Positions 1-49,037 of a stretch of DNA of 64,000 nt are shown piece after piece (position 1 is the first letter of the stretch; each line of letters begins with the position of its first letter). Under the pieces are notes generated by a model. That model was not told where the DNA came from, searched no databases, and worked only from the letters and a program-made list of their open reading frames with translations. This stretch comes from Escherichia coli. Its GTDB lineage: Bacteria; Pseudomonadota; Gammaproteobacteria; Enterobacterales; Enterobacteriaceae. A program made the translations under genes and the position numbers. Location: the NCBI RefSeq assembly GCF_003018235.1, contig NZ_CP027437.1; one strand, given 5' to 3'.

Positions 1-6
1 GATATA

Positions 7-435
7 TTATTGGTGCTTCGATTTAAAAAACTCCCAATACTTTGGAGTATATCCTTTAAATGCTCTATGTTTCCCTTTTTCATAAGCTTTCAGGAAACAT
101 TCGTAAGCCTCATCGTTTTCACCTAATTCTAGACAAACACCCCCTAAGTTAATCAGTTCAGATGTGGAATATAGTGGAATTTCACACTTAAAAATTTCAA
201 CTGCCCAGTATTTTGCCTCATTATATTTTTTAAGGTCAAAATACACACCATAAATGCAACGAATCAACCATGCAGAAACTCCATCACCAAAAGAATATTT
301 CGGCTCAGGTAAACTATCCCACAAAGAAAGATAAAGTTTTAAAGCACCATAGGCATCTCCTTGATCTTCAAGAACGTTACCATCTTCGATTTGCTTTACT
401 ATGCTTTCTTCAAGCACTGGTCTGGTACTACTCAT
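7..435 (-). CDS. Putative immunity protein for the Rhs C-terminal toxin (142 aa)
   Basis: ORF begins 73 bp downstream of the rhs stop on the same strand; AT-rich like the toxin tip; helical, Tyr/Glu/Lys-rich sequence. Position and composition fit a cognate immunity gene; family not identified. Confidence 0.5.
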   Translation of the reverse strand: MSSTRPVLEESIVKQIEDGNVLEDQGDAYGALKLYLSLWDSLPEPKYSFGDGVSAWLIRCIYGVYFDLKKYNEAKYWAVEIFKCEIPLYSTSELINLGGVCLELGENDEAYECFLKAYEKGKHRAFKGYTPKYWEFFKSKHQ

Positions 436-508
436 TGCAAGCTACTCCATATGTATAAAATGAAAATTCACATAGTTCTAACTAGCTAATATATAACAAC
501 CGATTTCT

Positions 509-3500
509 CTATTTTATGATTGGCGGTACAATTGGAGGTGTCACTGGTGGTAAGTATACTTGACCAAGTTTAGCCCCAGCAGAACGGTTAAGAGAATAAT
601 GATCCAAATAATAATTTTTTGAATCCAGCATCCAATCCCTGACAGGTTTAGACTTCGGCCCCAAAAATCTACCAGTATTATTCCACCATGTAACGGCATC
701 TGTCTTATGAGACATATCTGCTTCACTTAATGGATGCCAGACACCTTCAGAATCTTTAAACTCCATCCGGGAACCTGTCCCTCTAATTTTTCCATCATTT
801 CTCATCCGAGCAATAACCTCACGGCCTGTTCGGCTATTCTTCCCTGGGGTTCTTCCTAAGAAATCACAACGTTTTGACAGCCCTAATGGGTCAATCCACC
901 CCAGCGGATTAGGCGCATAAGCATACAGGTTCAGCCCGCCCGCCAGCCCTATCGGGTCCGTTACCATGAACCGCCCGACATCCGGATCATAGTACCTGTG
1001 CAGATTGTAATGCAGCCCCGTTTCCCTGTCGAGGTACTGTCCCTGGTAGCGCAGGTTCTGCTCCACCCCGCCGTGGTCCTTCTCCTGTATCGTGTTACCC
1101 CAGACCTGATACCCCGTCTCCCACACGATTTTCCCGTCGCTGTCCGTCATCTCTTCCGGCGCGCCGTTCACATCCGTGTGAAAATACAGTATCCGGTTCG
1201 GGCCCTCTTTACCCACCTTATCCACCCGCGCCAGCGGTTCATAACTCCCCGGGTCGCTGTAGATATACAGGCTGCTTATTCCCTCCGGCCTGCTCTCCTG
1301 CGCCAGCCGCATTCCGTCCCATAAAAATGTCGTCCGGTTGTACGGTTTACCGTCAGGGCTGATGTGCTGTTTTTCCGTCCGCCTCCCCAGCGCATCGTAC
1401 ACATACCGGTACGTTCCCCGCGCTGTCGTCACTTCCACCATCCGGTGTTCCGCATCATAACGGTAACTCTGCGTGCCGCTCCGGCCCTCCTTTTCCACCG
1501 CACGGCCAAATTCGTCGTAACGGTAGTGCACACCACGGTAAGACATCAGCCGGTTGAACGGCACCACGCTGTTTTCTGCCGTGGCCCTTTCCCCCGCGCG
1601 CCGCGCCAGCAGGTTTCCCGCCGCGTCGTACTCCCAGCTCGCCAGATACCCCTCATCCTCCGAGCGGCACGCCGTGATGCGCCCCGTGGGGTCGTAGAAG
1701 TAATCCGTTTCCCCCCGCCGGCTGTGCCGCGTCTTCAGCAGTTCATCCTCGCCGCTGTAGCTGTACTGCCGGTCCGTGAACGTCTCCGGTACCACCCCGC
1801 GCATCCCGCTGTATGTCTCCCTGCGCTTCAGCCGCCCGGCGGGGTCATAAAGCTGCCGCGTGCTCAGTCGCCCCTGACTTCTGAGCACTTCCCGGTGCAG
1901 GGCGTCACGTGTGAACTCGCTGATGACCTCCCGGTCCAGATTTATCTGCTGGAGATGGCCGCTGCCGTAGTACAGATGACGCTGCGTTCTGCCGTCCGGA
2001 AAGGAGGTGGCTGTCCGGTTGCTGAGTTCATCGTACTGATGGGTCAGGACGCCCTGCGCCGTCTCCTCAGTCAGCATCCGCCCCAGTCTGTCGTAACTGA
2101 AGCGGATAATCTCCGGTGCGTCCATTTCCCCGGCATCCGACCGTCGGCGGCGGATTTCCAGTAGCTGGTCTGCCGCATCATGGACGTATTCCGTACGGCT
2201 ATCGGCTGTCTCCTTTGCCGTGAGCCGGCCCGCCGCATCACGTGCCAGCCGGTGGCGGATTTCACCGCCCCGGTCCCCTGTGAACACCACTTCCGTGACC
2301 GCGTTCAGCACGTTGTAACGGTACGTCTGGCGGCAGCCGTCCGGATTTATCTGCTCCGCCAGACGGTCCAGCACATCATGGCGGAACCGGTAGTTTTCTC
2401 CGTTCTCGTTCGTGAGCGTGACCAGACGCCCGTAAGCATCGTACCCGAACGCCGTCCTGCGCCCCGTCGCGTCTGTCCGGCTGCGCACCCGGCCCTGCCC
2501 GTCCCGCTGCCAGCGCGTTATCCTCCCCATCGGGCTGGTGTACTTCACGAGCCTGCCCGCCGCGTCCGACTGGTAATTCACCGTGCGGCCGTCCGCCAGT
2601 ATCACCTCCGTCAGGTGGCCGCTGTCGTCATACCCGTAGCGCGTGCTGTGGCTCTGCGCGTCTGTCATCCGTATCAGCCGCGTGCGTTCGTCGTAGAACC
2701 AGGCCGTCTGCGAGCCGGAACAGTCCGTGTGCCGCATGAGCTGTCCGTCTTCGTTCCACTGAAGGTATTTATTCCCCCCGCGCGCATCCGTTATCTGCAC
2801 CACCTGACCGTGGCGGTCATACTGATACCGGGTGTTCTGCTGCAGCGGGTCGGTCACCGCAAGAAGATTGCCGCGTTCATCGTACTCACAGCACCAGCTG
2901 TTCCCCGCCGCGTCCACCTCCGTTTCCGGCTGGTGCCACACCGGGTGCCACTGTGTCTGTGCCACCCGCCCCAGCGGGTCGTGCGTCTCCGTGATATGCC
3001 CCTGCCGGTCATACACATAGCGCCATTTGCCGCCCTGCGCATCGGTCATTCCCAGTAACAGCCGTTCTTCGTCGCTCCAGCGGAACGTCGTCACCTGCCC
3101 GGCTTCGTCCTGGTACGCCGTCACCTGGTTCTGCGCGTCCCACTGATGATAACGCGTGCGCCCCAGCCCGTCCGTCACGCACAGCCTGCGTGCCGCGAGG
3201 CTCCACGCCAGCCGGTACTGTTCACCGCTGTCCGTGTGGTGCCCCGTCACCCGCCACGCTGCGTCATCCGGGCCTTCATACCAGCCCCACTGGTAATAAT
3301 ACCCTTCGCCGCCCGGCTGGCGGTGCAGGGTCATGCAGTGGTTTTCGTCGTAAGCAAACTCGCGCAGCAGGTGCCCCGTGCTGTCGTACACGCCGTTCAG
3401 GTCGCCGGCCTCGTCATAGCGGTAACGACGCAGCAGTAAAGGAGCCGTCTCAGGGAAATGCTGATAAATCTGTGTCACCCGCCGGGGATGCGCCGCCAGT

Positions 3501-5188
3501 TCATAATGCAGACGGATGCACGGACGCTGCTGTTCACCGCTGATTTGCGTGATGCGCCCCAGCTCGTCGTAGTACAGATTCAGACAGTTGCTGTTGCGGT
3601 CGCCCAGCATTTTCAGCCGCTGGTGCTGCGGGTGATGCGGGTCGGCTTCAAACAGAAAAAACTGCCCGTCATCGCTGCTGATAAGCCAGTGCCCCTGCTC
3701 ACCCCGCCGTACTGCCAGTCCTTCGCCGGGGCTGTAAAACCCGCTCCCCGGCAGCACAGCCTCCATATCCAGGCGTCGTCCCATGCCCGACACAAAGGTC
3801 ATACAGTTTTCGTCAGCAGTACCCGGCGTGCGCACGAGGCTGACTTCATACATCACGCTCCAGCCCTGCCCGAACATCCCTTCCGTGCGGTCGTCACGAC
3901 TGCTGTACACGCGCTGCCAGTCCAGCGGAAAGTGGCCCGGCAGACTGAAGTCAAAATCATCGTCATCGGCCAGATATTTGGCTCCGGTGGCGGCATTGAC
4001 CGGATGCGGAAGGGCACTGATGGCCTTCTGCGTCATCACCCCCATCCCGACACTGGCAGCAAAACAGGCGATTTTAGAAAGCATTTTGCCCGGGCGAAGA
4101 AACATCAGCGCCACGGTTGCCACCAGGGTTATCTGCGACCTGCCGCTTCTGATATCCCTGACCACCAGTAACGGACCGCCAATGCGGACATCCGGTGACA
4201 CAAACGCCCCGTTCCCCGGCTCATTCACCACCCTGGCCTCGCAGGTGCAGCGTGCCCCGCTGCGTGCCGCCGGCTGGCTGTTGATACGCACATCCCGCGC
4301 GCCTTCCGCGATATATTCCGCTGCGGGCGGTTCATCATCGCCTTTGAACAGATTACTGATGCTGCCAATAACCGCATTCACTCCCTGAAAGGCGGTTTCC
4401 AGCATACCGCCCGGACTCAGCAGGTTAAGGGCCGTTCCCAGGGGGTCATCCAGAAAGGCGGCTTTTTTTTGTGCGAGAAACTGCGTCAGTGAGGAGGGAT
4501 GTTTATGGCAGTCGATTTTATCGTCAGGGGTCGGGGTGGAGCCCGGGGCCGCACTGGCCACGGTGGGCTGCCATAGTTCCGACACAAAATGTGTCACGCC
4601 ATCCACCATTTCAGAACGCCCTTCTTCCGTACTGAGCTGGTCATGCAGCGCCCGGGACATCAGCACAGGCCCTGTCACCGGGTTAACCGCCAGGGCTATG
4701 GCCCCCGCCATTTCCAGATATTCCCCGGCCACATCCAGGAACGTTCTGGCGTCCTCCTGACGCTGCGCTTCTTCCTGTTCCGCCTTCGCCTGCGCCTCCT
4801 GCGCCTCAATGTCCTGCCGCGATGCCGCAGTCGCCGCGGCCCGCGCGGCAGGTTTGCTGTTGATCCATGTGTCGCCAGAGCCGGTGAGGATGTAACCTTC
4901 AATCTGAGGCGGGAAAAGCATATTTGCGAGGTCTGAACAGACTTCGCTGACCTTTTCTGTCACGCCGGTGTACACCATCGCCACACCCGCCACAAAACCG
5001 GTCAGCACGACGGCCGTGCACCCCATAGTGATCCCCGCTGACGTCGCCAGTAACGAGGTTGTGCCGACAATGAGGGCATCAATAACGACATTTGCGGCCA
5101 CCTCCAGCACCGCCCCCAGCACATCTGCCATAAACGACGTATGCAGCAGGGCATCACCCTGCCTTGCCGCCCAGAATGCCTCTTCCAT
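509..5188 (-). CDS. Rhs-family polymorphic toxin (1559 aa): prePAAR/PAAR N-terminus, YD-repeat shell, DPLGL boundary, variable 122-aa C-terminal tip
   Basis: ATG at 5188. N-terminus carries AARQGDALLH (prePAAR consensus AARxxDxxxH), hydrophobic stretches at residues ~23-75, and PAAR tetrapeptides at residues 113-116 and 306-309. Many YD repeats (YRYDEAGDL, YQYDRHGQ, YGYDDSGHL). Core ends PNPLGWIDPLGL; the last 122 aa (nt 512-877) are AT-rich. Confidence 0.9.
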   Translation of the reverse strand: MEEAFWAARQGDALLHTSFMADVLGAVLEVAANVVIDALIVGTTSLLATSAGITMGCTAVVLTGFVAGVAMVYTGVTEKVSEVCSDLANMLFPPQIEGYILTGSGDTWINSKPAARAAATAASRQDIEAQEAQAKAEQEEAQRQEDARTFLDVAGEYLEMAGAIALAVNPVTGPVLMSRALHDQLSTEEGRSEMVDGVTHFVSELWQPTVASAAPGSTPTPDDKIDCHKHPSSLTQFLAQKKAAFLDDPLGTALNLLSPGGMLETAFQGVNAVIGSISNLFKGDDEPPAAEYIAEGARDVRINSQPAARSGARCTCEARVVNEPGNGAFVSPDVRIGGPLLVVRDIRSGRSQITLVATVALMFLRPGKMLSKIACFAASVGMGVMTQKAISALPHPVNAATGAKYLADDDDFDFSLPGHFPLDWQRVYSSRDDRTEGMFGQGWSVMYEVSLVRTPGTADENCMTFVSGMGRRLDMEAVLPGSGFYSPGEGLAVRRGEQGHWLISSDDGQFFLFEADPHHPQHQRLKMLGDRNSNCLNLYYDELGRITQISGEQQRPCIRLHYELAAHPRRVTQIYQHFPETAPLLLRRYRYDEAGDLNGVYDSTGHLLREFAYDENHCMTLHRQPGGEGYYYQWGWYEGPDDAAWRVTGHHTDSGEQYRLAWSLAARRLCVTDGLGRTRYHQWDAQNQVTAYQDEAGQVTTFRWSDEERLLLGMTDAQGGKWRYVYDRQGHITETHDPLGRVAQTQWHPVWHQPETEVDAAGNSWCCEYDERGNLLAVTDPLQQNTRYQYDRHGQVVQITDARGGNKYLQWNEDGQLMRHTDCSGSQTAWFYDERTRLIRMTDAQSHSTRYGYDDSGHLTEVILADGRTVNYQSDAAGRLVKYTSPMGRITRWQRDGQGRVRSRTDATGRRTAFGYDAYGRLVTLTNENGENYRFRHDVLDRLAEQINPDGCRQTYRYNVLNAVTEVVFTGDRGGEIRHRLARDAAGRLTAKETADSRTEYVHDAADQLLEIRRRRSDAGEMDAPEIIRFSYDRLGRMLTEETAQGVLTHQYDELSNRTATSFPDGRTQRHLYYGSGHLQQINLDREVISEFTRDALHREVLRSQGRLSTRQLYDPAGRLKRRETYSGMRGVVPETFTDRQYSYSGEDELLKTRHSRRGETDYFYDPTGRITACRSEDEGYLASWEYDAAGNLLARRAGERATAENSVVPFNRLMSYRGVHYRYDEFGRAVEKEGRSGTQSYRYDAEHRMVEVTTARGTYRYVYDALGRRTEKQHISPDGKPYNRTTFLWDGMRLAQESRPEGISSLYIYSDPGSYEPLARVDKVGKEGPNRILYFHTDVNGAPEEMTDSDGKIVWETGYQVWGNTIQEKDHGGVEQNLRYQGQYLDRETGLHYNLHRYYDPDVGRFMVTDPIGLAGGLNLYAYAPNPLGWIDPLGLSKRCDFLGRTPGKNSRTGREVIARMRNDGKIRGTGSRMEFKDSEGVWHPLSEADMSHKTDAVTWWNNTGRFLGPKSKPVRDWMLDSKNYYLDHYSLNRSAGAKLGQVYLPPVTPPIVPPIIK

Positions 5189-5206
5189 GTCCCGTTCCCT
5201 GTGTGA

Positions 5207-5436
5207 TTAATTCGTCCCGGCTTCCTGCCGCATCCTGAAGCGCAGATTCTTTTTAATTTCAGCCCAGCGCGTCATATCTGCCGGGGTCAGCGGTGTGGTT
5301 CTGGCGTAGGTGAAGGCCATCATGACCCGCTCACCCGGCAATACAAATGCCACCTGACACTGGTACACCTGCTCGTTACCCCGGAGAAACTGGCTCTGTA
5401 TTTGCAAACCGCCTCATTGAGATAATATTCCGTCAT
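5207..5436 (-). pseudogene. Disrupted short ORFs immediately upstream of rhs; possible remnant of an effector-associated chaperone gene
   Basis: A 66-aa ORF (5207-5407, TTG start) ends 19 bp before the rhs start. An ATG at 5436 with an upstream AGGA opens a different frame that stops at 5320. No intact ORF of chaperone size. Assignment is positional inference only. Confidence 0.2.
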
Positions 5437-6190
5437 AATAGAAGTCGTCCTTTTTAATAAATGAATTATTTATTGACAGGTTCTGTTTTTTAATCATGAA
5501 TGTAATGTCTATCACCGCTTTACAGCACTCTTTATCTTTCAAGCGGTAATCACTAATAACATTAAGCAATTACCCATATTTACAATGACCGGAACTGATA
5601 TGCCGTTATGTATTTAACAATCCCAACATATTCACCATACCAATAAAATCACGAGTAACAAACACGCTACCGCCTCCATATAAAAAATGGACAGCTTATA
5701 AAATTGCATCTTGCATAGAAAGGGCTGAGATATCGAGTGTATTTTAATTATCAACTATAAATCTTGAATATTTTCATTAACAGAAACACATCTTATCCCA
5801 TTAGATATGTTAACAATCAATTATTCTTAACATATCACTAAAGTATATATTACTCTCTTTACTATCTGTTTTTATTGCGGTAGCGATATTAATAGCAAAA
5901 TTCGGAATTTATTTAGATGCTGGAATAAGAAAAAATGATGACGGCTTTCTTACCTTACCCTGAAGTTTCAGGAAAGTGTGTAAGGAAGGATGCAACCTAA
6001 CTGGAGATTTCTGAGGATCTAGTTGCTTAGAGCGACAATGAAGGTGAACGCATCCAGAGTAGTCCTATGAAAGGATACTATTGAAAATTGATGCTAAAAC
6101 AGTGATTAAATGAACAACACCATGGAACCCGTTGATTCAAAACGCCTAAACCAGCCCCCTGATACGAGGCTGGCTTAAACGCGCAGGCAA

Positions 6191-23749: not shown

Positions 23750-23778
23750 AAAAGCCAACCTGCGGGTTGGCTTTTTTA
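23750..23778 (+). terminator. Intrinsic terminator after fur
   Basis: AGCCAACC-TGCG-GGTTGGCT hairpin followed by TTTTTT, 16 bp after the fur stop. Confidence 0.7.
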
Positions 23779-23817
23779 TACACGGGAAATAAGAAAAGCG
23801 AGAGTTACAGCTCTCAC

Positions 23818-25600: not shown

Positions 25601-25953
25601 GGGTTAATCCTCTTTGACGTATAAATTGCTGCACCAAAGGTGAACAGCGAAAAAAATAAAAATTAAAAAAGTAGCGTTGAGAAAAGTCTCGCTGACTACA
25701 GGAACAGACTATTTTTCGCGACGCGAATTATCAATCTCTTTCTGTAACCAGAATGTAAGAACATGAGCAACCGCACATATTTTGATGATTTTTGTTACAA
25801 GGCTTAAGTTTGCAGTTGAAAGGCTTGCAGAAGAATAAAAACGTGAAATTCCAGCAAGATGAAAGCGGTTACATTTTATTTAATTATGTTTTGTGATTTT
25901 AAATTTATTTTATGGATAAATTGCGAAGCGGAATTAATTCGCGAAGAAAAGCA

Positions 25954-27713: not shown

Positions 27714-27915
27714 CGTGGATTCCTCAAAGCGTAAACAACGTATAACGGCGTATGATCTTATAAGCGGGACAGGCTGACAACTGTTAGTTAGTGAAAATCG
27801 AAAATCTCACTGAGATTATGGGGATGATTGATGAAAAAAAAAGCGGCAGAGAAGATCTCCACCGCTTGTCATTGTTGGATGCGACGCTGCCGTGTCGCAT
27901 CAGGTATAAAGCAGA

Positions 27916-29862
27916 TTACTTTTTGATTTCATACAGCGGTGTTTGACCCGCCACGACATGGCCCTGAGCTTTAATGATCAAGCCGCTGAAATCGTCGATA
28001 TTGCTGCAAACCACCGGGCTAATCATCGAGCGGGCGTTTTCGTTCAGATAATCCAGATCCATTTCCAGAATCGGTTGCCCTGCGCTTACTTGCGCGCCCT
28101 CTTCCACCAGACGTTTAAAGCCTTTACCTTCCAGCGCTACGGTGTCGATACCCATATGGACGACGATCTCCGCGCCTTTTTCGGTTTCCAGGCAGAACGC
28201 GTGGTTGGTGTTGAAGATTTTCACGATTGTCCCTGCGGCTGGTGATACGACGATTTTATCTGTCGGTTTCACCGCCACACCGTCACCCACCGCTTTGCTG
28301 GCGAATGCTTCGTCAGGAACCTGATCCAGTGCCACAACATCACCGGTAATCGGCGATACCAGCTCCGCGACAGACACCGCGTTTGGTATAGCCTGCGGTT
28401 TTGCTACAGGCGCGGCAGTTGCAGGCGCAGTTTCAGCTGACGCAGCGGCTACCGGACCACGGGCAACAACTTTCTTCATTGCATCGCCAATGGATTCCGC
28501 TTTCGCGCCAACAATCACCTGAATAGTCTGTTTGTTCAGTTTCACTACCCCAGAAGCACCCAGCCGTTTACACATCGCATCGTTGACGCGAGCCGAGTCA
28601 ACCACGGTCAGGCGCAGACGAGTAATACAGGCGTCAATTGCTTTCAGGTTGTCAGTGCCGCCAACCGCAGCAATATAGTTGGTCGCCAGTTGATTGAGGC
28701 CTTCTTCAGTGTTGCTGTTGGCTTCTTCAGTAACGATCTCATCTTCTTTATCTTCACGACCCGGCGTTTTCAGGTTGAACATGCGGATAACCAAACTGAA
28801 CACCACGAAGTAGATAGCGAAGAAGACAACACCCATAACCAGCAGCATCCAGACGTTCTGGCTGGCGGCCGGCAGGTTATACATCAACGCGTAGTCGATA
28901 GCCCCCGCAGAGAAGGAGAAGCCCGCGTGGATACCCAGCAGCGTTGCCACAAACAGGCTGATACCGGTCAGCAGTGCGTGCAGGAGGTACAGCAGCGGCG
29001 CAAGGAACATGAACAGGAATTCCAGCGGCTCAGTCACACCGGTCAGGAACGCAGTAACAGCAACAGAAAGCAGCATACCGCCAACCATCGGACGACGCTC
29101 TTTCGGTGCTGCAAAGTACATCGCCAGCGCCGCACCCGGCAGACCGAACATCATGATCGGGAAGAAGCCGGACATGAACATCCCCGCGGTGCCGTCACCG
29201 GCATAGAAGCGGTTGATGTCACCGTGGAAAACCGTACCCGCCGCGTTGGTGAATTCACCAATCTGGAACCAGGCGATGGTGTTCAGTACCTGATGCAGAC
29301 CGGTTGGGATCAGCAGACGGTTGATGAAACCAAAGATACCGGAACCCAGCGCGCCCGCAGAAACGATCCACTCGCCGCCTGCATGGATAGCGTGCTGTAC
29401 CGGCGGCCAGACGTAACCAAAAATGGCCGCCAGCACCAGGCAGAAGAAGCCGGTGGCGATCGGCACAAAGCGTTTGCCGCCGAAGAAGCTCAGGAAGTCC
29501 GGCAGTTTAATATCGGACCAACGGTTATAGGCTGCACCACCGACCAGACCGGTAATGATACCCGCCAGTACACCCATGTTAATTTCCGGGTTGATGGTCA
29601 CCATCGCTTTGGTTAACACAAAGTAACCTACCGCACCCGCCAGTGCCGCCGCACCTGCGCTGTCTTTCGACCAGCTGGATGCCACGCCGATGGCGAAGAT
29701 TAATGCGAGGTTATCAAAAATCGCACCGCCCGCCTGGGCAATAAACGCAACGTTAAGTAAATCTGGCTGACCGAATCGCAGCAACAGCGCCGCCACCGGC
29801 AGCACCGCGATAGGGAGCTGTAACGCCCTACCGAGTCGCTGGAAAAAACCTAAAATATTCAT
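27916..29862 (-). CDS. nagE: NagE, PTS N-acetylglucosamine transporter EIICBA (648 aa)
   Basis: Membrane EIIC domain followed by EIIB (..CITRLR..) and EIIA domains. Confidence 0.95.
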   Translation of the reverse strand: MNILGFFQRLGRALQLPIAVLPVAALLLRFGQPDLLNVAFIAQAGGAIFDNLALIFAIGVASSWSKDSAGAAALAGAVGYFVLTKAMVTINPEINMGVLAGIITGLVGGAAYNRWSDIKLPDFLSFFGGKRFVPIATGFFCLVLAAIFGYVWPPVQHAIHAGGEWIVSAGALGSGIFGFINRLLIPTGLHQVLNTIAWFQIGEFTNAAGTVFHGDINRFYAGDGTAGMFMSGFFPIMMFGLPGAALAMYFAAPKERRPMVGGMLLSVAVTAFLTGVTEPLEFLFMFLAPLLYLLHALLTGISLFVATLLGIHAGFSFSAGAIDYALMYNLPAASQNVWMLLVMGVVFFAIYFVVFSLVIRMFNLKTPGREDKEDEIVTEEANSNTEEGLNQLATNYIAAVGGTDNLKAIDACITRLRLTVVDSARVNDAMCKRLGASGVVKLNKQTIQVIVGAKAESIGDAMKKVVARGPVAAASAETAPATAAPVAKPQAIPNAVSVAELVSPITGDVVALDQVPDEAFASKAVGDGVAVKPTDKIVVSPAAGTIVKIFNTNHAFCLETEKGAEIVVHMGIDTVALEGKGFKRLVEEGAQVSAGQPILEMDLDYLNENARSMISPVVCSNIDDFSGLIIKAQGHVVAGQTPLYEIKK

Positions 29863-29985
29863 CTTATTCCCCCTACGAGAACCCTATTTGGCTCGTTTAA
29901 AGCCGTATTTTTATTTTGCTGCAAATTGTACTGCCGATGTTCTGTAATCAGATTGTTAGATCATCTGCTACAGAGTGTGTGAAAA

Positions 29986-30007
29986 TTTAATTCGTATCGC
30001 AAATTAA
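29986..30007. promoter_or_regulatory. Dyad-symmetric operator in the nagE-nagB divergent region (NagC-type)
   Basis: Perfect inverted repeat TTTAATT-CGTATCG-CAAATTAAA (arms are exact reverse complements) next to the CRP site. Confidence 0.45.
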
Positions 30008-30015
30008 ACGCGTGT

Positions 30016-30037
30016 CTTTTGTGAGTTTTGTCACCAA
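30016..30037. promoter_or_regulatory. CRP binding site in the nagE-nagB divergent region
   Basis: TGTGA-GTTTTG-TCACC, matching the TGTGA-N6-TCACA consensus. Confidence 0.6.
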
Positions 30038-30194
30038 ATATCGTTATCATCACTCCCTTTTACTGGCTAAACCAGAAAACTTATTTTATCATTCAAAAAA
30101 TCAGGTCGGATTGACGCCTGTCTGCGCAAATCCAGGTTACGCTTAAAGATGCCTAATCCGCCAACGGCTTACATTTTACTTATTGAGGTGAATA

Positions 30195-32203
<2,009 letters not shown>

Positions 32204-32211
32204 GAGAAAGT

Positions 32212-33432
32212 ATGACACCAGGCGGACAAGCTCAGATAGGTAATGTTGATCTCGTAAAACAGCTTAACAGCGCGGCGGTTTATCGCCTGATTGACCAGTA
32301 TGGGCCAATCTCGCGGATTCAGATTGCCGAGCAAAGCCAGCTTGCCCCCGCCAGCGTAACCAAAATTACGCGTCAGCTTATCGAACGCGGGCTGATCAAA
32401 GAAGTTGATCAGCAGGCCTCCACCGGGGGCCGCCGCGCTATCTCTATCGTCACCGAAACCCGCAATTTCCACGCAATCGGCGTACGGCTTGGTCGTCACG
32501 ACGCCACCATCACTCTGTTTGATCTCAGTAGCAAAGTGCTGGCGGAAGAACATTACCCGCTGCCGGAACGTACCCAGCAGACGCTGGAACATGCCCTGCT
32601 GAATGCCATTGCTCAGTTTATTGATAGCTACCAGCGCAAGCTGCGCGAGCTGATCGCCATTTCCGTGATCCTGCCAGGGCTTGTTGACCCGGACAGCGGC
32701 AAAATTCATTACATGCCGCATATTCAGGTAGAAAACTGGGGGCTGGTAGAAGCACTGGAAGAACGTTTTAAAGTGACCTGTTTCGTCGGTCACGATATCC
32801 GTAGTCTGGCGCTGGCGGAGCACTACTTCGGTGCAAGTCAGGATTGCGAAGACTCCATTCTGGTGCGTGTACATCGCGGAACCGGGGCCGGGATTATCTC
32901 TAACGGGCGCATTTTTATTGGCCGCAACGGTAACGTCGGTGAAATTGGCCATATTCAGGTCGAACCGCTGGGTGAACGCTGCCACTGCGGCAACTTTGGC
33001 TGCCTGGAAACTATCGCCGCCAATGCTGCCATTGAACAACGGGTATTGAATCTGTTAAAGCAGGGCTACCAGAGCCGTGTGCCACTGGACGACTGCACCA
33101 TAAAAACTATCTGCAAAGCTGCGAACAAAGGCGATAGCCTGGCGTCGGAAGTGATTGAGTATGTCGGTCGTCATCTGGGCAAAACCATCGCCATTGCCAT
33201 CAACCTGTTTAACCCGCAAAAAATTGTTATTGCCGGAGAAATCACCGAAGCCGATAAAGTGCTGCTCCCTGCTATTGAAAGCTGCATTAATACCCAGGCG
33301 CTGAAGGCGTTTCGCACTAATCTGCCGGTGGTACGTTCTGAGCTGGATCACCGCTCGGCAATCGGCGCTTTTGCGCTGGTAAAACGCGCCATGCTCAACG
33401 GTATTTTGCTCCAGCATTTGCTGGAAAATTAA
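32212..33432 (+). CDS. nagC: NagC, ROK-family transcriptional regulator (406 aa)
   Basis: N-terminal HTH followed by ROK domain with CHCGNFGCLE zinc motif. Confidence 0.97.
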   Translation: MTPGGQAQIGNVDLVKQLNSAAVYRLIDQYGPISRIQIAEQSQLAPASVTKITRQLIERGLIKEVDQQASTGGRRAISIVTETRNFHAIGVRLGRHDATITLFDLSSKVLAEEHYPLPERTQQTLEHALLNAIAQFIDSYQRKLRELIAISVILPGLVDPDSGKIHYMPHIQVENWGLVEALEERFKVTCFVGHDIRSLALAEHYFGASQDCEDSILVRVHRGTGAGIISNGRIFIGRNGNVGEIGHIQVEPLGERCHCGNFGCLETIAANAAIEQRVLNLLKQGYQSRVPLDDCTIKTICKAANKGDSLASEVIEYVGRHLGKTIAIAINLFNPQKIVIAGEITEADKVLLPAIESCINTQALKAFRTNLPVVRSELDHRSAIGAFALVKRAMLNGILLQHLLEN

Positions 33433-33479
33433 TGTGCTTTTATAGTGGCGCTTATTGTTGTCAATATTCTGGGTAGTCC

Positions 33480-34232
33480 ATGACCATTAAAAATGTAATT
33501 TGCGATATCGACGGCGTGCTGATGCACGATAACGTCGCCGTACCGGGTGCAGCGGAATTTTTGCACGGGATTATGGATAAAGGCCTGCCGCTGGTGTTGC
33601 TGACCAACTATCCTTCGCAGACCGGGCAAGATCTGGCGAACCGCTTTGCCACTGCGGGTGTCGATGTGCCGGACAGCGTGTTTTATACCTCCGCGATGGC
33701 AACCGCCGATTTCCTGCGTCGCCAGGAAGGCAAGAAAGCATATGTGGTGGGCGAAGGCGCACTGATTCATGAACTGTACAAAGCCGGTTTCACTATTACC
33801 GATGTGAACCCTGATTTTGTGATTGTTGGCGAAACGCGTTCCTACAACTGGGACATGATGCATAAAGCAGCCTATTTCGTCGCTAACGGTGCACGCTTTA
33901 TCGCCACCAACCCGGACACCCATGGGCGCGGTTTTTATCCGGCCTGTGGCGCGCTATGCGCGGGGATCGAAAAAATCTCCGGACGTAAACCGTTCTATGT
34001 TGGTAAGCCGAGTCCGTGGATCATCCGCGCAGCATTAAACAAAATGCAGGCGCATTCGGAAGAAACGGTGATTGTCGGCGATAACCTGCGTACCGATATT
34101 CTGGCGGGCTTCCAGGCCGGTCTGGAGACGATTCTGGTACTCTCCGGTGTTTCGTCGCTCGACGATATCGACAGTATGCCATTCCGCCCCAGCTGGATTT
34201 ACCCATCGGTCGCCGAAATCGACGTTATCTGA
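33480..34232 (+). CDS. nagD: NagD (UmpH), HAD-family UMP phosphatase (250 aa)
   Basis: HAD motif I DIDGVL near the N-terminus; last gene of the nag cluster. Confidence 0.95.
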   Translation: MTIKNVICDIDGVLMHDNVAVPGAAEFLHGIMDKGLPLVLLTNYPSQTGQDLANRFATAGVDVPDSVFYTSAMATADFLRRQEGKKAYVVGEGALIHELYKAGFTITDVNPDFVIVGETRSYNWDMMHKAAYFVANGARFIATNPDTHGRGFYPACGALCAGIEKISGRKPFYVGKPSPWIIRAALNKMQAHSEETVIVGDNLRTDILAGFQAGLETILVLSGVSSLDDIDSMPFRPSWIYPSVAEIDVI

Positions 34233-36533: not shown

Positions 36534-36610
36534 GGCTACGTAGCTCAGTTGGTTAGAGCACATCACTCATAATGATGGGGTCACAGGTTCGAATCCCGTC
36601 GTAGCCACCA
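36534..36610 (+). tRNA. metT: tRNA-Met (elongator, anticodon CAU)
   Basis: 77-nt GGCTACGTAGCTCAGTTGGTTAGAGCACATCACTCATAATGATGGGGTCACAGGTTCGAATCCCGTCGTAGCCACCA with encoded CCA. Confidence 0.95.
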
Positions 36611-36620
36611 TCTTTTTTTT

Positions 36621-36705
36621 GCGGGAGTGGCGAAATTGGTAGACGCACCAGATTTAGGTTCTGGCGCCGCAAGGTGTGCGAGTTCAAGTCTCGCCTCCCG
36701 CACCA
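36621..36705 (+). tRNA. leuW: tRNA-Leu (anticodon UAG), class II with long variable arm
   Basis: 85-nt GCGGGAGTGGCGAAATTGGTAGACGCACCAGATTTAGGTTCTGG...CGCACCA. Confidence 0.95.
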
Positions 36706-36728
36706 TTCACCAGAAAGCGTTGTACGGA

Positions 36729-36803
36729 TGGGGTATCGCCAAGCGGTAAGGCACCGGTTTTTGATACCGGCATTCCCTGGTTCGAATCCAGGTACCCCAG
36801 CCA
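36729..36803 (+). tRNA. glnU: tRNA-Gln (anticodon UUG)
   Basis: 75-nt TGGGGTATCGCCAAGCGGTAAGGCACCGGTTTTTGATACCGG...CCAGCCA. Confidence 0.95.
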
Positions 36804-36837
36804 TCTTCTTCGAGTAAGCGGTTCACCGCCCGGTTAT

Positions 36838-36912
36838 TGGGGTATCGCCAAGCGGTAAGGCACCGGTTTTTGATACCGGCATTCCCTGGTTCGAATCCAG
36901 GTACCCCAGCCA
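36838..36912 (+). tRNA. glnW: tRNA-Gln (anticodon UUG), second copy
   Basis: Identical to the glnU sequence. Confidence 0.95.
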
Positions 36913-36927
36913 TCGAAGAAACAATCT

Positions 36928-37004
36928 GGCTACGTAGCTCAGTTGGTTAGAGCACATCACTCATAATGATGGGGTCACAGGTTCGAATCCCGTCGTAGCC
37001 ACCA
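36928..37004 (+). tRNA. metU: tRNA-Met (elongator, anticodon CAU), second copy
   Basis: Identical to the metT sequence. Confidence 0.95.
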
Positions 37005-37052
37005 AATTCTGAATGTGTCGAATATGTTCGGCAAATTCAAAAACCAATTTGT

Positions 37053-37127
37053 TGGGGTATCGCCAAGCGGTAAGGCACCGGATTCTGATTCCGGCATTCC
37101 GAGGTTCGAATCCTCGTACCCCAGCCA
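37053..37127 (+). tRNA. glnV: tRNA-Gln (anticodon CUG)
   Basis: 75-nt TGGGGTATCGCCAAGCGGTAAGGCACCGGATTCTGATTCCGG...CCAGCCA. Confidence 0.95.
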
Positions 37128-37164
37128 ATTTATTCAAGACGCTTACCTTGTAAGTGCACCCAGT

Positions 37165-37239
37165 TGGGGTATCGCCAAGCGGTAAGGCACCGGATTCTGA
37201 TTCCGGCATTCCGAGGTTCGAATCCTCGTACCCCAGCCA
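37165..37239 (+). tRNA. glnX: tRNA-Gln (anticodon CUG), second copy
   Basis: Identical to the glnV sequence. Confidence 0.95.
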
Positions 37240-44722: not shown

Positions 44723-45631
44723 ATGCAATTACGTAAACCTGCCACAGCAATCCTGGCCTTGGCGCTTTCCGCAGGACTGGCACAGGCAGATGACGCCGCC
44801 CCGGCAGCGGGCAGTACGCTGGACAAAATCGCCAAAAACGGTGTGATTGTCGTCGGTCACCGTGAATCTTCAGTACCTTTCTCTTATTACGACAATCAGC
44901 AAAAAGTGGTGGGTTACTCGCAGGATTACTCCAACGCCATTGTTGAAGCAGTGAAAAAGAAACTCAACAAACCGGACTTGCAGGTAAAACTGATTCCGAT
45001 CACCTCACAAAACCGTATTCCACTGCTGCAAAACGGCACTTTCGATTTTGAATGTGGTTCTACCACCAACAACGTCGAACGCCAAAAACAGGCGGCTTTC
45101 TCTGACACTATTTTCGTGGTCGGTACGCGCCTTCTGACCAAAAAGGGCGGCGATATCAAAGATTTTGCCGACCTGAAAGGCAAAGCCGTAGTCGTCACTT
45201 CCGGCACTACCTCTGAAGTTTTGCTCAACAAACTGAATGAAGAGCAAAAAATGAATATGCGAATTATCAGCGCCAAAGATCACGGTGACTCTTTCCGTAC
45301 CCTGGAAAGCGGTCGTGCCGTTGCCTTTATGATGGATGATGCTCTGCTGGCTGGTGAACGTGCGAAAGCGAAGAAACCAGACAACTGGGAAATCGTCGGC
45401 AAGCCGCAGTCTCAGGAAGCCTACGGTTGCATGTTGCGTAAAGACGATCCGCAGTTCAAAAAGCTGATGGATGACACCATCGCGCAGGTGCAGACCTCCG
45501 GTGAAGCGGAAAAATGGTTTGATAAATGGTTCAAAAATCCAATTCCGCCGAAAAACCTGAACATGAATTTCGAACTGTCAGACGAAATGAAAGCACTGTT
45601 CAAAGAACCGAATGACAAGGCACTGAACTAA
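44723..45631 (+). CDS. gltI: GltI, glutamate/aspartate periplasmic binding protein (302 aa)
   Basis: ATG at 44723 after AAGGAG; signal peptide MQLRKPATAILALALSAGLAQA. Confidence 0.95.
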   Translation: MQLRKPATAILALALSAGLAQADDAAPAAGSTLDKIAKNGVIVVGHRESSVPFSYYDNQQKVVGYSQDYSNAIVEAVKKKLNKPDLQVKLIPITSQNRIPLLQNGTFDFECGSTTNNVERQKQAAFSDTIFVVGTRLLTKKGGDIKDFADLKGKAVVVTSGTTSEVLLNKLNEEQKMNMRIISAKDHGDSFRTLESGRAVAFMMDDALLAGERAKAKKPDNWEIVGKPQSQEAYGCMLRKDDPQFKKLMDDTIAQVQTSGEAEKWFDKWFKNPIPPKNLNMNFELSDEMKALFKEPNDKALN

Positions 45632-45788
45632 TTACAAGAACCAGGGGCGGAAATTCCAGCCCTCTCGATTGTTACGTAGCACGGACAGACTATACGCCTG
45701 ATGGTCGTTCCCCATCGGGCCTGAAAACCGCAATACGCTGGGTAACAATCTTCGAGGGTAGCAGTTAACGCTGCTACCCTCTTTTTTC
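45632..45788 (+). ncRNA. sroC: SroC sRNA (processed gltI-gltJ spacer, GcvB sponge)
   Basis: Whole gltI-gltJ intergenic spacer, ending in GAGGGTAGCAG-TTAACG-CTGCTACCCTC hairpin plus TTTTTT (45754-45788). Assigned from recalled K-12 location; 5' end approximate. Confidence 0.55.
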
Positions 45789-45800
45789 TGGAGTAGATTT

Positions 45801-48993: not shown

Positions 48994-49037
48994 TCACTCG
49001 CCGGATGACATCACGCCATCCGGCACCACTCATTTCA

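What the first reader, a model, noticed from the sequence alone, without database searches (positions are those of the whole stretch)
29863..30194. nagE-nagB divergent control region: dyad operator next to a CRP site
A perfect dyad (TTTAATT-N7-AATTAAA, 29986-30007) lies ~10 bp from a CRP-like site (TGTGA-N6-TCACC, 30019-30034) in the 332-bp divergent region. This fits the known NagC/CRP loop-controlled divergent nag promoters.
Basis: partly seen in the sequence, partly recalled or inferred. Interest (0 to 1): 0.2.

Follow-up and report, generated by a model that had tools for sequence, protein, structure and literature searches.

The report
Known E. coli nagE-nagB NagC/CRP control region
This is the textbook switch between the E. 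coli genes for taking up and breaking down N-acetylglucosamine: the NagC repressor binds two operators 94 bp apart and loops the DNA around a CRP activator site, so the finding is correct but ordinary.

Summary
The window is E. coli chromosome. The 332-bp spacer (29863-30194) lies between divergent nagE and nagBACD and is 100% identical to many E. coli genomes and 99.4% to K-12. The dyad is real but mis-measured: it is TTTAATT-N9-AATTAAA at 29986-30008, not N7 at 29986-30007. The dyad is letter-for-letter the published nagE NagC operator. The CRP site lies inside the loop, 30.5 bp from the nagE box and 63.5 bp from the nagB box. In 56 of 58 orthologous spacers from Enterobacterales, Aeromonas and Vibrionaceae, the two best NagC-matrix hits are 93-94 bp apart (0.8% in shuffles). 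In 54 of 58 the CRP core is exactly 30.5 bp from the nagE-side box. Minor extras, weakly supported: conserved leader motifs with no assigned role, and two different nagE gene types behind the same control module. Low interest.

The parts
27916..29862 (-). nagE, the GlcNAc-specific PTS transporter (IIABC, 648 aa), transcribed leftward from the control region
   Evidence: ORF. RefSeq annotation of identical or near-identical E. coli loci. NCBIfam NF007608 equivalog, 1445.6 bits against a cutoff of 1010.
29974..29979 (-). Putative nagE -10 hexamer CACACT (read on the minus strand). The inferred start is near 29966.
   Evidence: Inferred from sequence. The block GAGTGTGTGAAAA is conserved in 24 Enterobacteriaceae spacers. 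It lies 17 bp from the -35-like TTGCGA. The start-site position is from my memory of Plumbridge's papers and was not verified here.
29986..30008 (.). nagE NagC operator ('box E'): TTTAATTCGTATCGCAAATTAAA, centre 29997. It overlaps the putative nagE -35 (TTGCGA, 30002 to 29997 on the minus strand).
   Evidence: Exact match to the published nagE operator (PMC3098098 Table 1). TT/AA at positions +/-5,6 as required (PMC4288165). It ranks 2nd in the 64 kb with a matrix built from other NagC sites. It is conserved in the 48 orthologous spacers with 94-bp spacing (box E was the alignment anchor).
30017..30038 (.). CRP (CAP) site TTTTGTGAGTTTTGTCACCAAA. The core TGTGA-N6-TCACC is at 30020-30035, a 9/10 match to TGTGA-N6-TCACA. 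The centre is at 30027.5.
   Evidence: It is the best CRP core in the spacer. It sits 30.5 bp from box E in 54 of 58 orthologous spacers. TGTGA and TCAC are among the most conserved columns of the ungapped alignment. That it is the footprinted CAP site is from memory (Plumbridge & Kolb 1991, 1998, not readable here).
30064..30069 (+). Putative nagB -35 region (TGGCTA, within the conserved block ACTGGCTAA)
   Evidence: Strongly conserved block at a fixed offset, 17 bp upstream of TATCAT. The role is inferred.
30080..30102 (.). nagB NagC operator ('box B'): CTTATTTTATCATTCAAAAAATC, centre 30091. It covers the putative nagB -10 (TATCAT, 30087-30092) and the inferred start near 30099.
   Evidence: Exact match to the published nagB operator. 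TT/AA at +/-5,6 and C at both +/-11 positions, as in high-affinity NagC sites. It ranks 4th in the window with the leave-out matrix. It lies 94 bp from box E.
30195..34232 (+). nagB-nagA-nagC-nagD operon. The repressor gene nagC is at 32212-33432.
   Evidence: ORFs, annotation. NagC matches NF047937 equivalog at 719.2 bits against a cutoff of 650.

Best explanation
The region is the divergent nagE / nagBACD control region of E. coli. NagC, encoded in the same operon, binds a weak operator over the nagE promoter (29986-30008) and a strong operator over the nagB promoter (30080-30102). The centres are 94 bp apart, about nine helical turns, so the two sites face the same side of the helix. Cooperative binding closes a small DNA loop that represses both promoters at once. 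A single CRP site (centre 30027.5) lies inside the loop next to the nagE operator. When GlcNAc-6-phosphate releases NagC, cAMP-CRP activates both promoters from class I-type positions, about -61.5 for nagE and -71.5 for nagB. Shown here: the identity of the sequences with the published operators, the gene context, an intact nagC, and the near-invariant geometry across three orders of Gammaproteobacteria. Taken from the literature: looping, cooperativity and the inducer. Inferred: the start sites, and therefore the CRP positions.
For: The spacer is 100% identical in many E. coli genomes and is present in 5424 of 5426 complete genomes. It differs from K-12 at only 29899 and 30048, both outside the operators and the CRP core. 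The flanking genes are annotated nagE and nagBACD. Box E and box B are identical to the published NagC operators. A matrix built from 7-8 other NagC sites puts box E and box B 2nd and 4th in 64 kb, with the published chiP operator 1st. [quoted passage not shown] PMC5401889 lists nagE-B among two-site looped NagC targets. In 56 of 58 orthologous spacers the two best hits are 93-94 bp apart, against 24 of 2900 shuffled spacers. The CRP core is 30.5 bp from the nagE-side box in 54 of 58 and 63.5 bp from the nagB-side box in 50 of 58. AA/TT dinucleotides between the boxes show 10-10.5 bp periodicity that at most 1 of 1000 shuffles reach. This fits a pre-bent loop.
Against: Nothing contradicts it. 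The limits are as follows. No binding, looping or start site was measured for this allele. The primary footprint papers could not be read, so the identity of the CRP site with the footprinted CAP site, and the -61.5/-71.5 positions, rest on memory plus sequence inference. The exact CRP core pattern alone is not statistically rare. The tool's sigma-70 scan did not call either promoter, as expected for activator-dependent promoters with poor hexamers. The orthologous loci are phylogenetically related, so 56 of 58 is not 56 independent events.
Confidence: 0.95

Rival explanations
1. The dyad is primarily an Mlc operator. Mlc is the glucose-regulon paralogue of NagC, so nagE would be under Mlc rather than NagC control.
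For: Box E has A/T at both +/-11 positions, the signature of Mlc sites. PMC4288165 calls it a hybrid Mlc/NagC site that NagC alone does not repress when the nagB operator is absent.
Against: [quoted passage not shown] It also states that, with the nagB operator present, box E is preferentially regulated by NagC. The site is locked 93-94 bp from a high-affinity NagC box in 56 of 58 species, which fits cooperative NagC looping.
Confidence: 0.04
2. The dyad and the CRP-like motif are chance features of an AT-rich promoter spacer and have no specific protein partner.
For: The spacer is AT-rich. The exact CRP core pattern occurs by chance in 29 of 100 shuffles of the window.
Against: The dyad pattern occurs in 0 of 100 shuffles. 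Both boxes equal published operators. The sites and their spacing are conserved to the base pair from Escherichia to Aeromonas and Photobacterium, while the surrounding spacer is not alignable.
Confidence: 0.01
3. The dyad is a stand-alone operator that represses nagE by simple promoter occlusion, with no need for the second site or a loop.
For: It overlaps the putative nagE -35 and spacer, so occlusion is geometrically possible.
Against: [quoted passage not shown] Making it a single-site target needs the C/G 'super-operator' change at +/-11. The spacing to box B is invariant.
Confidence: 0.02

Closest known systems
E. coli K-12 nagE-nagBACD intergenic control region (NagC box E, NagC box B, CAP site; Plumbridge & Kolb 1991, 1993, 1998; Plumbridge 2001)
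   Same: The genes and the 332-bp spacer length are the same. Both operator sequences are identical, as is the CRP core, and the box spacing is 94 bp.
   Different: There are two single-base differences from K-12: 29899 is A where K-12 has C, in the nagE leader, and 30048 is C where K-12 has T, between the CRP site and the nagB -35. The window carries a widespread E. coli allele: 8 of 15 evenly spread hits are 100% identical. K-12 carries a different allele (99.4%).
Other two-operator NagC targets (glmUS, chbBCARFG, fimB, manXYZ) and the single-site targets galP and chiP
   Same: They share the 23-bp quasi-palindrome with TT/AA at +/-5,6. [quoted passage not shown]
   Different: Here the loop is very short (94 bp), encloses the activator site and represses two divergent promoters at once. 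The chiP operator also present in this window (25710-25732) is listed as 'ybfM proximal' among known NagC operators.
Repressor loops with an architectural protein inside, such as the gal repressosome (GalR-HU)
   Same: A repressor bound at two operators closes a short loop, and a DNA-bending protein sits inside it. This comparison is from general knowledge.
   Different: In nag the bending protein inside the loop is also the activator of both promoters. Both operators overlap promoters of different operons.

Membership tests
NagC (ROK-family) operator | 23-bp quasi-palindrome with invariant TT at -6,-5 and AA at +5,+6 around the centre | tested here: met
   Box E has TT at 29991-92 and AA at 30002-03. 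Box B has TT at 30085-86 and AA at 30096-97. The rule is from PMC4288165.
NagC (ROK-family) operator | C or G at +/-11 (the mark of high-affinity NagC sites) | tested here: met
   Box B has C at both 30080 and 30102. Box E has T and A instead, which is exactly the published peculiarity of the wild-type nagE operator. So the feature is met for box B and, as expected, not for box E.
NagC (ROK-family) operator | Identity or similarity to experimentally defined operators | tested here: met
   Both boxes match the nagE and nagB entries of PMC3098098 Table 1 exactly. With a matrix that excludes them they score 18-20 and 14-15 bits and rank 2nd and 4th of about 128,000 positions.
NagC (ROK-family) operator | NagC protein binds the site, and GlcNAc-6-P releases it | not testable with these tools
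   This is published for the identical K-12 sequence (cited). An intact nagC is present in the window.
Looped nagE-nagBACD divergent control region | Two operators in helical phase, each overlapping one of two divergent promoters | tested here: met
   The spacing is 94 bp centre to centre. It is 93-94 bp in 56 of 58 orthologous spacers. The overlap with the promoters is inferred from -10/-35-like hexamers.
Looped nagE-nagBACD divergent control region | A single CRP site inside the loop, next to the nagE operator | tested here: met
   The core is at 30020-30035, 11 bp from box E. The offset is 30.5 bp in 54 of 58 species.
Looped nagE-nagBACD divergent control region | Loop formation is required for repression | not testable with these tools
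   From the literature only (PMC4288165 citing Plumbridge & Kolb 1993).
Class I CRP-dependent promoter | CRP site centred near -61.5, -71.5, -82.5 or -92.5 relative to the transcription start | tested here: inconclusive
   With starts inferred from the -10-like hexamers (about 29966 and about 30099) the site falls at -61.5 and -71.5. No start site was measured or found in readable literature.
Mlc operator | A/T at +/-11 and repression by Mlc in vivo | tested here: inconclusive
   Box E meets the A/T criterion. In-vivo Mlc control is reported absent at physiological levels and cannot be tested here.

The most novel reading that the evidence does not exclude
The spacer may hold more than the three known protein sites. 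In Enterobacteriaceae there are conserved blocks with no assigned role in both leaders. One is TTTTTATT(G/T)TG at 29908-29918 in the nagE leader. Another is GTTACGCTTA at 30136-30145 in the nagB leader. A third is a possible long-range helix, CGGATTG 30107-30113 with TAATCCG 30154-60, that shows some compensatory changes. These could mark an undescribed post-transcriptional or additional transcriptional control of nagE or nagB. Separately, the base-pair-exact NagC-CRP-NagC geometry is kept across three orders, and behind two nagE genes only about 41% identical. That makes the module a natural test case for how rigid a 94-bp protein-DNA loop has to be.
Probability: 0.15. Interest if true: 0.35.

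Novelty: already known. Interest (0 to 1): 0.12.

Why it matters
It confirms that the window carries an intact, canonical amino-sugar switch, so the annotation can be made with confidence. It teaches nothing new about E. coli. The modest added value is comparative. The operator-CRP-operator spacing (30.5 + 63.5 bp) is essentially invariant from Escherichia to Aeromonas and Vibrionaceae. This is quantitative support for the idea that loop geometry, and not only site sequence, is under selection.

Tried and rejected
(1) I tried to read the primary footprint papers (NAR 2001 29:506; NAR 1998 26:1254; J Bacteriol 1996 and 2008). They are not held, so start sites and the CAP footprint could not be checked against text.

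(2) Text searches for the CRP site sequence and for '-61.5/-71.5' returned only irrelevant papers.

(3) The generic sigma-70 and terminator scan found only CTTACA-17-AATAAT at 30168-30196 and a 5-bp hairpin at 29889-29905. Both are at chance level, so I rejected them as features.

(4) A third NagC box in the spacer: nothing scores above 7 bits apart from the two boxes.

(5) The NagC-matrix hit at 23771-23793 (15 bits, C/G at +/-11) lies on the T-tail of the fur terminator between the convergent genes chiQ and fur. I judged it a chance match.

(6) A structured nagB leader: RNAalifold gave no consensus structure. Single-sequence z-scores ran from -0.17 to -1.96. One hand-specified helix shows 73% pairing, and 15 cells with a change on both sides against 6.7 in shuffles. 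This is suggestive only.

(7) Rfam found no RNA family in the spacer.

Full report
**What is there.** The window is E. coli chromosome. The 332-bp stretch 29863-30194 gives a full-length match in 5422 of 5426 complete E. coli genomes. It is 100% identical in many of them and 99.4% identical to K-12 derivatives. In those genomes the flanking genes are annotated nagE (leftward) and nagB-nagA-nagC-nagD (rightward), with glnS beyond nagE. The ORFs in the window sit at the matching positions: nagE 27916-29862 (minus), nagB 30195-30995, nagA 31055-32203, nagC 32212-33432 and nagD 33480-34232. The window's NagE and NagC pass the NCBIfam equivalog cutoffs (1445.6 against 1010, and 719.2 against 650).

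**Checking the observation.**
- The dyad exists, but it is TTTAATT-N9-AATTAAA at 29986-30008.
- The N9 dyad occurs once in the window and in none of 100 dinucleotide-preserving shuffles.
- On its own that pattern is not rare: 0.41 are expected per 64 kb.
- The gap between the dyad and TGTGA is 11 bp.

**Identity with known sites.** Table 1 of PMC3098098 lists known NagC operators compiled from El Qaidi & Plumbridge 2008 and from J. Plumbridge. It gives nagE = TTTAATTTGCGATACGAATTAAA and nagB = CTTATTTTATCATTCAAAAAATC.
- The first is the exact reverse complement of 29986-30008.
- The second is present exactly at 30080-30102.
- Both sites have the invariant TT/AA at +/-5,6 (rule in PMC4288165).
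- Box B has C at both +/-11 positions, as high-affinity NagC sites do.
- Box E has A/T there. [quoted passage not shown]

I built a position weight matrix from the other 7-8 sites of that table, leaving out nagE and nagB. It ranks box E 2nd and box B 4th in the whole window. First is the published chiP (ybfM) operator at 25710-25732. No third box scores above about 7 bits in the spacer.

**Geometry.** The box centres are 29997 and 30091, 94 bp apart, about nine helical turns. The CRP 22-mer 30017-30038 is centred at 30027.5, which is 30.5 bp from box E and 63.5 bp from box B.

The sequence offers -10/-35-like hexamers for both promoters:
- nagE (minus strand): TTGCGA at 30002 to 29997, a 17-bp spacer, then CACACT at 29979 to 29974.
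- nagB (plus strand): TGGCTA at 30064-30069, a 17-bp spacer, then TATCAT at 30087-30092.

The implied starts are near 29966 and 30099. They would place CRP at -61.5 and -71.5, both class I positions. They would also place box E over the nagE -35 and spacer, and box B over the nagB -10 and start. These starts agree with my recollection of Plumbridge's mapping (promoters 133 bp apart). They were not verified, because the primary papers are not held.

**Comparative evidence.** A NagB-based scan of one genome per species returned 80 loci. In 58 of them a nagE-type PTS gene lies divergently upstream of nagB.
- Taking the two best hits of the leave-out NagC matrix in each spacer, with no constraint on spacing, gives 94 bp in 47 loci and 93 bp in 9.
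- The exceptions are Moritella (126 bp, with CRP-to-box-B still 63.5 bp) and a Pasteurellaceae locus.
- Shuffled spacers give 93-94 bp in 24 of 2900 trials.
- The best CRP core is 30.5 bp from the nagE-side box in 54 of 58 loci and 63.5 bp from the nagB-side box in 50 of 58.
- I made an ungapped alignment of the 48 spacers with 94-bp spacing, all distinct, anchored on box E. The conserved columns are box E, TTTTTGTGA...TCACCAAAT, CTGGCTA and AAAACTTATTTTAT..T.CAAAAAATC. Elsewhere there is little or no conservation.
- These species are related, so the counts are not independent events. The range nevertheless covers Enterobacterales, Aeromonadales and Vibrionales.
- AA/TT dinucleotides in the 71 bp between the boxes show a 10-10.5 bp periodicity. 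In the window its power is 1.5-1.6 against a shuffle mean of 0.19, and at most 1 of 1000 shuffles reach it. This fits the intrinsically bent loop that I recall from Plumbridge & Kolb 1998.

**Differences from K-12.** There are two substitutions. Position 29899 is A where K-12 has C, in the nagE leader. Position 30048 is C where K-12 has T, between the CRP site and the nagB -35. Neither touches an operator or the CRP core. The window's allele is widespread in E. coli: 8 of the 15 evenly spread hits listed are 100% identical.

**Mechanism, and how far it is shown.**
- Shown here: sequence identity with the published operators, gene context, an intact repressor gene, and conserved geometry.
- From the literature: NagC represses nagE and nagBACD. 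The weak nagE operator needs the strong nagB operator and a DNA loop. GlcNAc-6-P is the inducer.
- Inferred or recalled: CRP activates both promoters from class I positions, and CRP bending helps the loop.

**Rivals.**
- Mlc as the real partner of the dyad is suggested by A/T at +/-11. It is contradicted by the reported absence of cross-regulation at physiological levels and by the fixed coupling to a high-affinity NagC box.
- Chance is excluded by the shuffles and the conservation.
- Single-site occlusion is contradicted by the published finding that the wild-type nagE operator alone is not regulated.

**Side observations inside the spacer.** A MAFFT alignment of 24 Enterobacteriaceae spacers shows conserved blocks with no assigned role:
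- TTTTTATT(G/T)TG at 29908-29918, in the nagE leader.
- GTTACGCTTA at 30136-30145, in the nagB leader.
- ACGGATTG at 30106-30113 and AATCCGCCAAC at 30155-30165, also in the nagB leader.

The pairing CGGATTG with (C/T)AATCCG forms standard pairs in 73% of cells. It has 15 cells with a change on both sides, against 6.7 in shuffles. It also appears in the minimum-energy folds of three other species. However, RNAalifold finds no consensus structure, the z-scores are unremarkable and Rfam has nothing there. I regard this as a weak lead only.

**Verdict.** The element is already known in detail. Interest is low.

Noticed in passing
window 25710-25732 (minus strand): Exact copy of the published NagC operator of chiP/ybfM (GATAATTCGCGTCGCGAAAAATA) upstream of chiP. 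It is the top-scoring NagC-matrix hit in the window even when left out of the matrix.
   Followed up: partly
window 23771-23793: CTTTTTTATACACGGGAAATAAG scores about 15 bits with the NagC matrix and has TT/AA at +/-5,6 and C/G at +/-11. It lies on the T-tail of the fur terminator hairpin, between the convergent genes chiQ and fur. It is probably a chance match.
   Followed up: partly
L004-L081 (upstream of nagB); window 27916-29862 for comparison: Two deeply different nagE genes occupy the same position behind the same NagC-CRP-NagC module. The IIABC type, as in the window, is in 11 of 58 loci. A TIGR01998 IIBC-like type, about 41% identical, is in 47 of 58. One genome labelled E. coli (L004) carries the second type. 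Its similarity to the window begins at L004 position 1277, just on the nagE side of box E, which suggests an old recombination break inside the spacer.
   Followed up: partly
window 29908-29918, 30106-30113, 30136-30145, 30154-30165: Conserved blocks in the nagE and nagB leaders of Enterobacteriaceae with no assigned function: TTTTTATT(G/T)TG, ACGGATTG, GTTACGCTTA and AATCCGCCAAC. There is a possible long-range helix in the nagB leader with some compensatory changes, but no RNAalifold consensus and non-significant z-scores.
   Followed up: partly
window 29899 and 30048: These are the only two differences from K-12 in the spacer (A where K-12 has C; C where K-12 has T). 30048 lies between the CRP site and the nagB -35, where the RNA polymerase alpha subunit would be expected to contact DNA. 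The spacer (99.4%) is more conserved than the flanking DNA (about 97.5% to K-12).
   Followed up: partly
L085 (E. coli strain C9), equivalent to about window 29968: An IS4-like ISVsa5 element is inserted in the spacer close to the inferred nagE start. It separates nagE from its promoter and control sites. This is a rare variant among 5424 genomes.
   Followed up: partly
L002 (E. coli SK1144), between nagE and glnS; window 27714-27915: Some E. coli carry a three-gene insert next to nagE: a sialidase-family protein, a YhcH/YjgK/YiaL protein and an SLC13 permease. The window has the K-12 order, nagE-glnS.
   Followed up: no
window 30009-30079: AA/TT dinucleotides between the two NagC boxes recur every 10-10.5 bp, far above shuffles, in the window and on average in 48 species. 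This fits an intrinsically curved loop.
   Followed up: yes
window 7-5188 (minus strand), about 44620, about 49000-49037: Large-scale differences from K-12. A 1559-aa PAAR/RHS-repeat protein (509-5188) has no megablast match to the K-12 segment compared (window 1-6186 unmatched), and a small ORF follows it (7-435). There is no IS5 near gltI. The K-12 ybeQ-hscC segment of about 8 kb is absent.
   Followed up: partly
window 36534-37239 and 45627-45789: The cluster of seven tRNA genes (Met-Leu-Gln-Gln-Met-Gln-Gln) and the sroC sRNA are present as in K-12.
   Followed up: no
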